Assembly: GCF_013315695.1 (NCBI RefSeq)
Contig: NZ_CP054353.1
Reading direction: 5' to 3' (one strand)
Source of the DNA: Escherichia coli
Lineage (GTDB): Bacteria; Pseudomonadota; Gammaproteobacteria; Enterobacterales; Enterobacteriaceae
DNA length: 64,000 nucleotides
The notes under the pieces are model-generated. The model made no database searches, was not told the DNA's origin, and saw nothing but the letters and a program-made list of their open reading frames with translations. Shown here in pieces: positions 57,446 through 59,578 of this stretch. The position numbers and the translations under genes are program-made. The stretch's first letter is position 1, and every line of letters begins with the position of its first letter.

Positions 57446-57530
57446 CATCATGACGGGCATACGCTTTCACTGACAGACGCCGACGGTTAAGTGTAAGATT
57501 ATCCAAACAGAACTCAACGCAGGGCACTCA
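57446..57530 (+). promoter_or_regulatory. Putative promoter/5' region of the ATPase-HNH operon
   Basis: 85-bp spacer after smrB stop; CTGACA-(17/18 nt)-TAAGAT resembles a sigma70 -35/-10 pair; weak AGGG ribosome-binding sequence before ATGATG. Confidence 0.35.
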
Positions 57531-58889
57531 ATGATGAATATCCGCACGCTTAAGCTCACTAATCTGGGGCGGTTTGAAGAACTTGACGTTCATCTGGCTC
57601 CAGTGGAGGAGTTCAAGAGCAATGTGACCGTTTTTATTGGTAATAATGGTGCAGGTAAAACATCAATATTAAAATCGTTGGCAACCAGCCTGAGTTGGTT
57701 CGTTGCCCGAGTTCGTACTGAAAAGGGTAACGGTAGCCTTATTCCTGAAGACGCTATTCTGAACGGTAGGAGTTCGGCGACAATTGAACTTCAGGTACTG
57801 AATACGCATCCAGCGACGGAGGCCGCTACGCCCTACCGTTGGTTGCTTGCCAGAACGGCCAGTGGGAAAAAATCGACCACCGCCTCCAGCCTGCAAGAGG
57901 CCAGCCAATTGGCTGCGTTTTATCGAGATCAATACACCCAGAATAGCGGGGCATCCTTCCCGCTTATCGCCTTCTATCCCGTAGAACGTGTCGTGCTGGA
58001 CGTGCCGTTGAAAATAAAAGAACGTCATAATTTTTTGCAACTGGATGGCTACGATAACGCCCTGAATCAGGGTATTGATTTCCGCCGTTTCTTTGAATGG
58101 TTTCGCAATCGCGAAGATGCAGAAAATGAATCAGGCTTACCGCAAGACGTTCTGGATAAGCTCAGTACCAGGATAGATCTCGATAACACCGTCTTAAATG
58201 CATTAACGGCAATCATGGCCTCGTCCCGGGATCGCCAGTTGACCGCCGTCAGAACGGCCATTAGTCGCTTTATGCCAGGGTTCAGCAACTTACGCGTCAG
58301 GCGTAAACCTCGCCTGCATATGTCGATTGATAAAAATGGCCAGACACTGAATGTGCTGCAATTATCGCAGGGTGAAAAATCACTGATGGCGTTAGTCGGC
58401 GATATTGCTCGCCGCCTGGCAATGATGAACCCGATGTTAGAAAACCCGCTAAACGGCGAGGGAATTGTATTAATTGATGAAGTGGACATGCACCTGCATC
58501 CAACATGGCAGCGTACAATCATCCAGCGTCTGACGACAACATTCCCACATTGCCAGTTTGTCTTAACAACCCACTCTCCTTTAGTGATCAGTGATTGCAA
58601 AGATGTGCTGGTTTATTCTCTGGATGATGGCGAATTAACGCAGCTCCCGTCTCTGTATGGGCAAGATGCGAATACTGTGCTTTTGAATGTGATGGATACG
58701 GATATTCGCAATGCGACAGTGGCAGAAAAACTTAACGATCTTTTGGATCTGATTCAGAAAAACGACTTTATCAACGCTAACGCTCTTCTGAATACGCTAA
58801 GCCTGGAACTTCCTGAAAACCATCTTGAACTGGTGAAAGCCAGAATGCTTCTGCGCAAACAGGAAATTAAACATGCGCGAAATAACTAA
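57531..58889 (+). CDS. ABC/OLD-type P-loop ATPase (AAA_21/AAA_15-like, no TOPRIM domain); candidate defence-system ATPase, Septu PtuA-like
   Basis: 452-aa ORF; Walker A GNNGAGKT (res 37-44), ABC signature-like LSQGEK (res ~278-283), Walker B IVLIDEVD (res ~312-319), H-loop HLHP, TTHSP motif (res ~346-350); not in the K-12 smrB-yfcO interval as I recall it. Confidence 0.75.
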   Translation: MMNIRTLKLTNLGRFEELDVHLAPVEEFKSNVTVFIGNNGAGKTSILKSLATSLSWFVARVRTEKGNGSLIPEDAILNGRSSATIELQVLNTHPATEAATPYRWLLARTASGKKSTTASSLQEASQLAAFYRDQYTQNSGASFPLIAFYPVERVVLDVPLKIKERHNFLQLDGYDNALNQGIDFRRFFEWFRNREDAENESGLPQDVLDKLSTRIDLDNTVLNALTAIMASSRDRQLTAVRTAISRFMPGFSNLRVRRKPRLHMSIDKNGQTLNVLQLSQGEKSLMALVGDIARRLAMMNPMLENPLNGEGIVLIDEVDMHLHPTWQRTIIQRLTTTFPHCQFVLTTHSPLVISDCKDVLVYSLDDGELTQLPSLYGQDANTVLLNVMDTDIRNATVAEKLNDLLDLIQKNDFINANALLNTLSLELPENHLELVKARMLLRKQEIKHARNN

Positions 58890-59532
58890 AGGGCAACCGC
58901 CGGCTAGTTTGCAACAGTGGGTGAGAGCAAAACCACGGGATAAAAATGCCAATCAGTGGTTTCAGGAACTTTATGCGCAAAAAAAATGGGATATCGTTGG
59001 CGATCTCAGCCAGCAGTGCGCTCAGGAACAATTTTATCTCTGTGCTTATTGCTGCGATCGCGTGACAGGTACAAACCGCGATACCGTTAATGAACATGTC
59101 GAAGCCAGGGATTTAGCTCCTGCTCGCAGTCTGGAATTCACGAATATCGTTGCAAGCTGCAAAACAAAAGGCCAGTGTGACGACTCGCATAAGAACCAGC
59201 CATTGCTGTTAACGCCGCTTATGCCGGAATGTGAAACCGAGTTTATCTTCAAGATCAGTGGTCGAATTGAAGGGACGACGCCGAGAGCTATCGATGCGAT
59301 TAAGGTACTCAACCTTGGCGATAGTGAACGTAATAATCGGGCATTAATTGAAAAACGTAAGCAGCTTTCCGACAACCTTCTGTGGGCTAATGGCATTGAC
59401 CCTTCAGAGGGGCTTGAGGATGACGATCTGCTGCAAGTGGTTATCGACGAATTACTCACCCCCGTCGACGGTTATCTGGCACCTTTCGCTCCCGTGGTGG
59501 CGAATATTCTAAAAAACTGGATGACCGCATGA
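58873..59532 (+). CDS. Cys/His-rich HNH-like putative nuclease, partner of the ATPase (Septu PtuB-like)
   Basis: 219-aa ORF overlapping the ATPase gene by 17 nt; AGGAAA ribosome-binding sequence inside upstream gene; CAYCC...NEH...N...C-x5-C-DDSH pattern compatible with a zinc-bound HNH motif. Confidence 0.65.
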   Translation: MREITKGQPPASLQQWVRAKPRDKNANQWFQELYAQKKWDIVGDLSQQCAQEQFYLCAYCCDRVTGTNRDTVNEHVEARDLAPARSLEFTNIVASCKTKGQCDDSHKNQPLLLTPLMPECETEFIFKISGRIEGTTPRAIDAIKVLNLGDSERNNRALIEKRKQLSDNLLWANGIDPSEGLEDDDLLQVVIDELLTPVDGYLAPFAPVVANILKNWMTA

Positions 59533-59544
59533 CATAACGGACAA

Positions 59545-59562
59545 CGGGGCCAGATGGCCCCG
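59545..59562. terminator. Hairpin between convergent HNH-like gene and yfcO
   Basis: CGGGGCC-agat-GGCCCCG 13 nt after the stop of the 219-aa ORF; no strong T-tract. Confidence 0.45.
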
Positions 59563-59578
59563 TCGTGTGGTGTATGCG

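What the first reader, a model, noticed from the sequence alone, without database searches (positions are those of the whole stretch)
57446..59578. Insertion site between a core gene and a fimbrial operon may be a variable defence-island hotspot
The operon sits exactly between the stop of smrB and the convergent stop of yfcO, with only 85 bp and 46 bp of spacer and no integrase, tRNA or IS element visible in the window. This suggests an old, fixed insertion or acquisition by homologous recombination of flanking core DNA rather than a recent mobile-element event. The coding sequence looks AT-richer than flanking aroC/prmB by eye (not computed). Other strains may carry different cargo at this junction.
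Basis: inference. Interest (0 to 1): 0.5.

Follow-up and report, generated by a model that had tools for sequence, protein, structure and literature searches.

The report
Known Septu defence operon, single-cargo site
The two genes between smrB and yfcO are an already characterised Septu anti-phage system (PtuA ATPase plus PtuB nuclease), and this junction holds only Septu, its decayed remains or nothing, so it is not a hotspot with varied cargo.

Summary
The anatomy is as described. The interval between the smrB stop and the convergent yfcO stop holds a two-gene operon with 85-bp and 46-bp spacers. The window has no tRNA, integrase or IS. The operon's GC is about two SD below 51 core genes; its codon bias is ordinary.

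The operon is type I Septu, ptuA and ptuB. It is the same system, at the same locus, as 'Septu EcB88' (Nat Commun 2026): PtuA is 99% identical, the spacer is the same, and the catalytic residues carry the same numbers. That system cleaves host tRNA-Tyr during phage infection. Hochhauser et al. 2023 already list this site ('yfcO-yfcN') as Septu, with no mobile element and not a hotspot.

Of 5,426 complete E. coli genomes:
- 136 carry an intact cassette.
- 47 carry a 187-bp deletion allele.
- 475 carry only a 271-bp remnant.
- The rest have no trace of the cassette.

No other cargo appeared in 91 sampled chromosomes or 20 distinct gene contexts. The cassette is about 99% identical across backgrounds whose flanks differ far more. 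This fits exchange by homologous recombination plus frequent decay. The hotspot reading is not supported; the 'no mobile element' reading is.

The parts
56894..57445 (+). smrB, the left flanking core gene. Similarity to strains without the cassette ends at its stop codon. Its last ~250 bp fall into very divergent haplotypes (88-93% identity) that go with the type of intergenic region downstream.
   Evidence: NCBIfam NF003432 E 4e-95; similarity to the K-12 and Nissle loci ends at 57445; haplotype table
57446..57530 (+). 85-bp leader of the cassette. It is 98.8-100% identical in all Septu-bearing genomes examined. It holds one promoter-like site (CTGACA-18 nt-TAAGAT, 57470-57499). No terminator-like site was found between smrB and ptuA.
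   Evidence: the same spacer, with 2 SNPs, is in the published EcB88 clone, which was expressed from its native 300-bp upstream flank
57531..58889 (+). ptuA, the Septu ABC/SMC-type ATPase (452 aa). Walker A is GNNGAGKT at 37-44 (K43), the signature motif LSQGE at 278-282, and Walker B IVLIDE at 312-317 (D316).
   Evidence: PADLOC PtuA PDLC00271 E 4e-168, full length; PDB PtuA chains 9e8z_C 4e-62, 9kjx_B 6e-47, 8ee4_A 1e-32; motifs; 395/399 residues identical to PtuA of Septu EcB88, WP_000981116.1
58873..59532 (+). ptuB, the Septu HNH nuclease (219 aa). It has H75, N91 and conserved cysteines C57, C60, C96 and C102. It overlaps ptuA by 17 nt.
   Evidence: PADLOC PtuB PDLC00344 E 4e-95; NCBIfam PtuB/TIGR02646 below cut-off; invariant residues in 23 homologues; profile hits PDB PtuB chains 9e8z_E 3e-10 and 8ee7_C 2e-7
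59533..59541 (+). Last 9 bp (CATAACGGA) shared by all Septu-bearing genomes. This is the right edge of the common cassette; beyond it the sequence depends on the yfcO allele.
   Evidence: (matches ending at query position 2096)
59541..59566 (.). GC-rich hairpin with 12-nt arms between the convergent ptuB and yfcO stops. There is no U-tract, and the terminator scan did not call it. Other Septu-bearing strains have a different hairpin here.
   Evidence: inverted repeat I18; alternative spacer-2 sequences; scan
59579..60424 (-). yfcO (StfH/YfcO family fimbrial adhesin, DUF2544), the last gene of the yfc chaperone-usher operon. It is the right flank and is highly allelic (66-78% identity between strains).

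Best explanation
What it is. The interval is a 2.1-kb type I Septu anti-phage cassette (leader, ptuA, ptuB) lying between the 3' ends of smrB and yfcO.

Mechanism. This part is taken from experiments on a 99%-identical allele from the same locus and was not shown here. PtuA, an ABC/SMC-type ATPase, and PtuB, an HNH nuclease, act together. On infection by T5-like or T-even phages they cleave host tRNA-Tyr in the variable loop. Translation stops and phage production aborts. Both the ATPase and the HNH active sites are needed. Phages escape by supplying more of their own tRNA-Tyr.

Locus biology. The counts and comparisons below are shown here; the evolutionary reading is inferred. This is a one-cargo presence/absence polymorphism, not a multi-cargo hotspot. 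The cassette entered E. coli once at this site. Its closest relatives elsewhere lie inside type I restriction-modification operons of other Gammaproteobacteria. It carries no mobility genes. Within the species it is passed on and shuffled by homologous recombination through the flanks. It is often lost or inactivated: 136 genomes are intact, 47 carry a 187-bp microhomology deletion that truncates both proteins, and 475 retain only the last ~225 bp of ptuB plus the 46-bp spacer.
For: Identity of the system:
- PADLOC gives full-length PtuA (E 4e-168) and PtuB (E 4e-95).
- PtuA matches solved PtuA structures, and a PtuB profile matches solved PtuB structures.
- All catalytic motifs are intact.
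- The two genes are paired in all 43 related loci where I looked for ptuB.

Same system as the published one:
- The cloned Septu EcB88 fragment starts in the smrB 3' end and has the same 85-bp spacer.
- Its PtuA is 99.0% identical.
- The residues it mutated (K43 and D316 in PtuA, H75 and N91 in PtuB) are at the same positions here (PMC13096335).

One site only:
- All 658 genomes with any trace have a single chromosomal place; none is on a plasmid.
- There is no close copy on plasmids or phages; the best matches are 68% and 31.5% identical.

No other cargo:
-, and the Hochhauser S3 table.

Recombination and decay:
- Synonymous differences in ptuA number 5-8 per 1359 nt, against 16-49 per 1086 nt in aroC, in the same strain pairs.
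- The cassette occurs with two smrB 3' haplotypes and at least three yfcO alleles, and the remnant occurs with both smrB haplotypes.

Origin:
- In Bowmanella (L018) the ptuAB pair lies between confirmed hsdM and hsdR. ORF layouts in L019, L052 and L027, and the feature names on the Enterobacter plasmids, suggest the same setting.
Against: - The mechanism is taken from a near-identical allele, not tested on this sequence. The four PtuA substitutions (D19E, L70P, T220A, I228L) lie outside the motifs but could change activity.
- The published PtuB sequence was not compared directly. Only its residue numbering and the end of its alignment were seen.
- Absence of other cargo rests on sampling (91 chromosomes, 20 contexts) plus a bound on large insertions. 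Rare small occupants, below roughly 1-3% of genomes, are not excluded.
- The sharp switch of haplotype within 6 bp of the cassette edge in this strain is awkward for simple homologous crossover. It needs heteroduplex repair or a short-homology event.
- 'Entered once' is inferred from the single site and the shared edges, not from a phylogeny.
Confidence: 0.85

Rival explanations
1. One reading: the smrB-yfcO junction is a defence-island hotspot where different strains carry different cargo.
For: The junction is polymorphic, and the intergenic sequence is unusually variable, with at least ten length or sequence types from 59 to 2133 bp. MGE-free defence hotspots do exist in E. coli (hotspot #37) and in P. 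aeruginosa.
Against: Only Septu, its remnant or an empty site were seen in 20 distinct contexts and 91 sampled chromosomes. The size outliers were IS621 between mnmC and yfcL, IS1 in yfcP, IS1 inside smrB, and an extra fimbrial pseudogene; none was cargo at the junction. Hochhauser et al. list the site as non-hotspot with Septu only.
Confidence: 0.05
2. The cassette is ancestral to a large part of E. coli and its patchy distribution comes only from vertical descent with repeated loss, with no horizontal spread between lineages.
For: Decayed copies outnumber intact ones (522 against 136). The Nissle-type remnant is 96.4% identical to the window over the ptuB part, similar to the 96.4% identity of the left flank.
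Against: Intact cassettes differ 3-6 times less at synonymous sites than neighbouring core genes in the same genome pairs. Cassette and remnant each occur with both smrB 3' haplotypes, which needs recombination.
Confidence: 0.1
3. The operon is a degenerate type I-A retron (like Ec78/Ec83) that has lost its reverse transcriptase and non-coding RNA.
For: The best solved-structure match of PtuA is the retron Ec83 ATPase (E 4e-62), better than stand-alone PtuA 8ee4 (E 1e-32). The NCBIfam names that hit are the retron Ec78 effectors.
Against: There is no RT ORF and no Rfam match in 56700-59800. PtuA lacks the ~60-residue N-terminal extension of retron PtuA (452 against 542-552 aa). NCBIfam scores are below the equivalog cut-offs (350.6 < 500 and 93.9 < 150). 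The closest relatives examined (L018; by ORF layout also L019, L052, L027) lie next to type I R-M genes. The near-identical EcB88 system defends on its own.
Confidence: 0.03
4. A recent insertion by a mobile element (transposon, integron-like cassette or phage satellite) whose machinery lies outside the window.
For: GC is lower than the core, and both boundaries are precise.
Against: There are no terminal inverted repeats or target-site duplication. The window has no integrase, IS or tRNA. All 658 genomes have one and the same site. There is no close copy on plasmids or phages. Decayed copies at about 96% identity argue for age.
Confidence: 0.02

Closest known systems
Septu EcB88 of E. coli JBBDAGI-19-0041 (Nat Commun 2026, PMC13096335)
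   Same: Same locus: the cloned fragment begins in the smrB 3' end. Same 85-bp leader, with 2 SNPs. PtuA is 452 aa and 99.0% identical over the 399 residues shown. K43, D316, H75 and N91 are at identical positions. The PtuB C-terminus is near-identical.
   Different: There are four PtuA substitutions (D19E, L70P, T220A, I228L). The adjacent smrB 3' end differs at 15 of 211 positions, so it is a different flank haplotype. The window allele itself has not been tested.
Septu type I, as covered by the PADLOC PtuA/PtuB models and the solved PtuAB complex (PDB 8ee4, 8ee7)
   Same: A two-gene ATPase plus HNH operon, with full-length matches to the PADLOC models. Both proteins are homologous to the solved chains.
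   Different: The similarity to that solved PtuA is only moderate (E 1e-32). From my own knowledge, that work proposed ATP-inhibited DNA cleavage by a PtuA hexamer bound to PtuB. The E. coli allele at this locus was shown instead to cut tRNA-Tyr.
PtuAB effectors of type I-A retrons (Retron-Eco7/Ec78, Ec83)
   Same: Homologous ATPase and HNH; these are the best PDB matches. The reported target is the same, the tRNA-Tyr variable loop.
   Different: No RT or msDNA sensor is present. PtuA lacks the N-terminal ~60 residues. NCBIfam scores are below the equivalog cut-offs.
MGE-free defence hotspots (E. coli hotspot #37 of Hochhauser 2023; core defence hotspots of P. aeruginosa)
   Same: A defence system sits between conserved chromosomal flanks with no detectable mobile element.
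   Different: Those hotspots hold many different systems. This site holds one system or its debris, and the survey itself does not count it as a hotspot.

Membership tests
Septu type I (PtuA + PtuB) | PtuA: an ABC/SMC-type ATPase with intact Walker A, signature and Walker B motifs | tested here: met
   PADLOC PDLC00271 E 4e-168, covering residues 2-450. GNNGAGKT at 37-44, LSQGE at 278-282, IVLIDE at 312-317. PDB PtuA matches.
Septu type I (PtuA + PtuB) | PtuB: an HNH nuclease (TIGR02646-like) with the catalytic His and Asn and the Cys ligands | tested here: met
   PADLOC PDLC00344 E 4e-95. H75, N91, C57, C60, C96 and C102 are invariant in 23 homologues. The profile hits PDB PtuB chains.
Septu type I (PtuA + PtuB) | The two genes are adjacent, co-directional and form one operon | tested here: met
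   17-nt overlap at 58873-58889. ptuB was found at or just after the end of the PtuA match in all 43 related loci that gave a hit.
Septu type I (PtuA + PtuB) | Protects against phage, and protection depends on both active sites | not testable with these tools
   Reported for the 99%-identical allele from the same locus: K43A, D316A, H75A and N91A each abolish defence, and tRNA-Tyr is cleaved on T6 infection (PMC13096335).
Type I-A retron (Ec78/Ec83 type) | A reverse transcriptase gene and an msr-msd non-coding RNA next to ptuAB | tested here: not met
   There is no RT ORF in or beside the 2.1-kb interval. No Rfam match at E <= 1 in 56700-59800.
Type I-A retron (Ec78/Ec83 type) | Effector proteins reach the NCBIfam equivalog cut-offs, and PtuA has the N-terminal extension | tested here: not met
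   NF041760 scores 350.6 against a cut-off of 500, and NF041761 scores 93.9 against 150. The query starts aligning at chain residue ~67 of the 542-552-aa retron PtuA.
Defence-island integration hotspot (sensu Hochhauser et al. 2023) | The same pair of core flanks holds diverse defence cargo in different strains | tested here: not met
   Only Septu, its remnant or an empty site in 20 contexts and 91 sampled chromosomes. The paper's table marks 'yfcO-yfcN' as hotspot 'No' with Septu only.
Defence-island integration hotspot (sensu Hochhauser et al. 2023) | The cargo is carried on an identifiable mobile element (prophage, satellite, ICE/IME or transposon) | tested here: not met
   No integrase, IS or tRNA. 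No TIR or TSD. The paper's MGE column reads 'None'.

The most novel reading that the evidence does not exclude
The position directly downstream of smrB may be functional rather than merely tolerated. No terminator-like site was found between smrB and ptuA, so the cassette could be co-transcribed with smrB. Septu's cleavage of tRNA-Tyr would stall ribosomes at Tyr codons. SmrB, the collided-ribosome endonuclease, could then cut the stalled mRNAs and strengthen the shut-off. A second possibility is that the very divergent smrB 3' haplotypes, each tied to one intergenic and yfc type, mark a long-maintained balanced polymorphism that includes the defence cassette.
Probability: 0.05. Interest if true: 0.5.

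Novelty: already known. Interest (0 to 1): 0.15.

Why it matters
The main value is in closing the lead. The operon is a named and mechanistically studied defence system, and its chromosomal site was already tabulated, so nothing new needs to be discovered here.

The by-products are modest but usable:
- A census of the locus in 5,426 complete genomes: 2.5% intact, 0.9% with a defined inactivating deletion, 8.8% with a remnant.
- Evidence that a defence cassette without any mobility genes is shuffled between E. coli backgrounds and decays faster than it is kept.
- Closest relatives of the cassette outside E. coli that lie inside type I restriction-modification operons.

These points illustrate gain and loss of defence genes outside mobile elements, a minority route according to the pan-genome survey.

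Tried and rejected
1. Other occupants of the junction.
   - Two exact-protein context look-ups for two SmrB alleles gave 20 distinct contexts, with no other cargo.
   - Two long-query searches of 5,426 genomes with evenly spread row samples followed. Half of the first sample was lost to plasmid IS1 hits, because the query contained an IS1; I repeated it without the IS1.
   - Every size outlier I opened was elsewhere: IS621 between mnmC and yfcL, IS1 in yfcP, IS1 inside smrB, and an extra fimbrial pseudogene in O157:H7.
   - Three size outliers were not opened: one of about +1.3 kb, one of +1.4 kb annotated as IS3, and one of +0.78 kb. Two further +1.3-kb outliers were not opened either.
2. Terminal inverted or direct repeats at the cassette edges: nothing beyond chance-level short matches.
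3. An 'empty-site' allele. One 115-bp intergenic type (L004) shares the first ~38 bp of spacer 1 and the hairpin of spacer 2. This suggests an insertion point near 57483, but the evidence is weak and I make no claim from it.
4. Retron remnant: rejected.
5. A conserved Septu-SmrB linkage: rejected. SmrB is next to PtuAB in none of 79 non-E. coli loci.
6. A single-sequence PDB search for PtuB found nothing. A 23-sequence profile was needed.
7. The first 48 bp of the Nissle-type intergenic region looked like a PtuB C-terminus in translation. It is also the start of a Septu-free intergenic type (L009), so I did not count it as a second remnant.
8. The smrB coordinates I derived for locus L017 were off by one. 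I ignored those rows; the BLAST-based comparison of L017 stands.
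Full report
1. THE OBSERVATION

smrB runs 56894-57445 on the + strand and matches NCBIfam SmrB at E 4e-95. An ORF of 452 aa follows at 57531-58889, and an ORF of 219 aa at 58873-59532; the two overlap by 17 nt. The convergent yfcO has its stop at 59579. The spacers are 85 bp and 46 bp.

ARAGORN finds no tRNA in the 64 kb. The window is colinear at 99.95-99.99% identity with the RefSeq-annotated strain MSB1_4I, from nuoL to the yfc usher gene. That annotation has no integrase or IS in this stretch; the only related gene is the core gene rpnB.

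The 'AT-richer by eye' remark holds, but only moderately. ptuA GC is 0.473 and ptuB 0.483, against 0.528 +/- 0.026 for 51 core genes of the window (z = -2.1 and -1.7). GC3 is 0.499 and 0.482 against 0.576 +/- 0.044. Codon bias relative to the core set is ordinary.

2. WHAT THE OPERON IS

PADLOC gives full-length matches to PtuA (E 4e-168) and PtuB (E 4e-95), the two proteins of the Septu defence system. PtuA has an intact Walker A motif (GNNGAGKT, K43), ABC signature (LSQGE) and Walker B motif (IVLIDE, D316). PtuB has the HNH His75 and Asn91 and conserved cysteines, which are invariant in 23 homologues.

PtuA matches solved PtuA chains: retron Ec83 ATPase at 4e-62, retron I-A PtuA at about 1e-46, and stand-alone PtuA 8ee4 at 1e-32. 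A PtuB profile matches solved PtuB chains at 3e-10 to 2e-7.

It is not a retron. There is no RT ORF and no Rfam match. PtuA lacks the N-terminal extension of retron PtuA. The NCBIfam scores are below the retron-effector cut-offs.

3. IT IS ALREADY CHARACTERISED, AT THIS LOCUS

A 2026 Nature Communications paper (PMC13096335) studies 'Septu EcB88' from E. coli JBBDAGI-19-0041. Its Supplementary Data 8 gives the cloned fragment.
- The fragment begins inside the smrB 3' end and continues through the same 85-bp spacer, with 2 SNPs.
- It encodes a 452-aa PtuA (WP_000981116.1) that is identical to the window protein at 395 of the 399 residues shown.
- The residues the authors mutated (K43 and D316 in PtuA, H75 and N91 in PtuB) are the same residues at the same positions here.

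According to that paper, the system was expressed from its native 300-bp flank. It protects against Demerecviridae and partly against T4 and T6. It needs both active sites. It behaves like abortive infection. On T6 infection it cleaves host tRNA-Tyr in the variable loop (C48/A49). T6 escapes by amplifying its own tRNA-Tyr gene. I take this as the mechanism; it is transferred from a near-identical allele and not tested on this sequence.

4. IS THE JUNCTION A VARIABLE HOTSPOT?

The published pan-genome survey of E. coli defence islands (Hochhauser et al. 2023, PMC10121019) already lists this site as 'yfcO-yfcN'. The stored part of its supplementary table has three entries (strains ECONIH1, ST648 and MS6198). 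All three are Septu, 2129-2130 bp long, with MGE type 'None' and hotspot 'No'.

My own census of 5,426 complete E. coli genomes found the following.
- The cassette or part of it is present in 658 genomes. It is always on the chromosome and always at a single place.
- 183 genomes hold most of it. Of these, 136 are intact across the ptuA/ptuB junction.
- The other 47 carry a 187-bp deletion (window 58723-58909) between GCRACAGTGG microhomologies. It removes 55 residues from PtuA and 13 from PtuB.
- 475 genomes, Nissle 1917 among them, keep only the last ~225 bp of ptuB plus the 46-bp spacer, at about 96% identity, inside a 319-bp intergenic region.
- K-12 has an unrelated 70-bp intergenic region.

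I looked for other occupants in three ways.
- Exact-protein look-ups for two SmrB alleles returned 20 distinct gene contexts: 17 empty, 1 remnant and 2 Septu.
- A 25-kb and a 23.5-kb query spanning fabB to fadL, listed at even steps down the ranking, gave 32 and 59 chromosomes. Their span lengths fall into the empty, remnant and Septu classes plus a few outliers.
- The outliers I opened were IS621 between mnmC and yfcL, IS1 in yfcP, IS1 inside smrB, and an extra fimbrial pseudogene in O157:H7. None was cargo at the junction. Five outliers of 0.8-1.4 kb, consistent in size with IS elements, were not opened.

In the 23.5-kb search, 5,425 genomes matched and gave 5,465 places in all. At most 40 genomes therefore have the region split, which bounds large islands at about 0.7%. 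Rare small occupants cannot be excluded by sampling.

What does vary is the short intergenic sequence itself. There are at least ten types of 59-319 bp, some with REP-like elements. The neighbouring yfc operon is also strongly allelic, at 66-78% identity.

5. HOW THE CASSETTE GOT THERE AND MOVES

The cassette has no terminal repeats or duplications at its edges. No close copy exists on plasmids (best 68%, an Aeromonas caviae record) or on phages.

Among one genome per species, the only near-identical hit is an E. coli-like contig binned into a 'Citrobacter' MAG. The next-best PtuA is 72% identical. In the best non-E. coli hit, Bowmanella (L018), ptuAB lies between a confirmed hsdM and a confirmed hsdR. 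ORF layouts in Allopseudospirillum, Zobellella and Aeromonas, and the annotated features on the Enterobacter plasmids, point to the same setting. None of the 79 non-E. coli loci has smrB nearby.

Within E. coli the shared cassette runs from the base after the smrB stop to 59541. It is 98.6-99.4% identical in strains whose smrB last 250 bp differ by 7-10% from the window and whose yfcO differs by 22-30%. Synonymous differences are 5-8 per 1359 nt in ptuA, against 16-49 per 1086 nt in aroC, for the same strain pairs.

All other Septu-bearing genomes examined share one smrB 3' haplotype. The window instead has the Nissle-like haplotype. The remnant occurs with both haplotypes, and neither haplotype was seen with an empty site among 29 loci.

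I infer a single old acquisition at this site, later exchange between lineages by homologous recombination through the flanks, and frequent decay. Decayed copies outnumber intact ones by 522 to 136. The switch of haplotype within 6 bp of the cassette edge in this strain is not trivially explained by a simple crossover, and I flag it as unresolved.

6. COMPARISON AND VERDICT

The system is a member of type I Septu. Every defining sequence feature was tested and met, and activity is reported for the same-locus allele. It works like the PtuAB effector of type I-A retrons but is not one.

The site does not meet the definition of a defence hotspot, because it has neither diverse cargo nor an identifiable mobile element.

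'Fixed' and 'variable hotspot with different cargo' are not.

Novelty: already known. Interest: low.

The only speculative residue is a possible functional tie to SmrB, through read-through transcription or through ribosome collisions after tRNA-Tyr cleavage. It has no comparative support, and I rate it at about 5%.

Noticed in passing
window 27962-30615: A low-GC gene pair, a trans-sulfuration-family enzyme and an NhaC antiporter (GC 0.45 and 0.44, z about -3), lies between the convergent genes yfcH and rpnB. K-12 has yfcH and rpnB directly adjacent. This is a second small accessory insertion without mobility genes, again between convergent 3' ends.
   Followed up: partly
window 58723-58909 (absent in L099 and L100): 47 of the 183 cassette-bearing genomes carry a 187-bp deletion between GCRACAGTGG microhomologies. 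It truncates PtuA to 404 aa and PtuB to 207 aa and is probably an inactive allele.
   Followed up: yes
window 59308-59578; L001 3001-3271: 475 genomes, including Nissle 1917, keep only the last ~225 bp of ptuB plus the spacer, at about 96% identity, preceded by 48 bp of unrelated sequence. RefSeq does not annotate it.
   Followed up: yes
window 57195-57445: The last ~250 bp of smrB are exceptionally diverse for a core gene (88-93% identity between haplotypes, almost all synonymous). Each haplotype goes with one type of downstream intergenic region. The two haplotypes seen with Septu or its remnant were not seen with empty sites among 29 loci.
   Followed up: partly
window 59579-63578: The yfc chaperone-usher operon is strongly allelic: yfcO to yfcR are 66-78% identical between strains and about 72% identical to K-12. 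The flanking core genes are 96-98% identical. O157:H7 has an extra fimbrial pseudogene.
   Followed up: partly
L018 3223-12493; also L019, L027, L052: The closest non-E. coli PtuAB pairs (66-72% PtuA identity) appear to be embedded in type I restriction-modification operons. hsdM and hsdR were confirmed in Bowmanella (L018). The other loci were judged from ORF layout.
   Followed up: partly
L017 (DXKH01000145.1): A 7.4-kb contig of a MAG labelled 'Citrobacter sp.' is about 98% identical to the E. coli smrB-Septu-yfc region and encodes an identical PtuA. This is probably a binning error or an Escherichia contig.
   Followed up: no
window 39240-39288: This is the only break in colinearity with strain MSB1_4I, a short length difference in the dedD-cvpA intergenic region.
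   Followed up: no
L015 2849-3829; L114 7514-8842: IS621 lies between mnmC and yfcL in one opened genome, and same-sized insertions occur in three others. IS1 interrupts smrB itself in strain p11B, so smrB is dispensable there.
   Followed up: partly
window 57446-59578 and 27902-30921: A 2025 paper lists both smrB-yfcO and yfcH-rpnB among K-12 convergent gene pairs with overlapping transcription ('excludons', PMC12288877). These are the two places where this strain has extra genes, and the insertions would separate the convergent transcripts.
   Followed up: no
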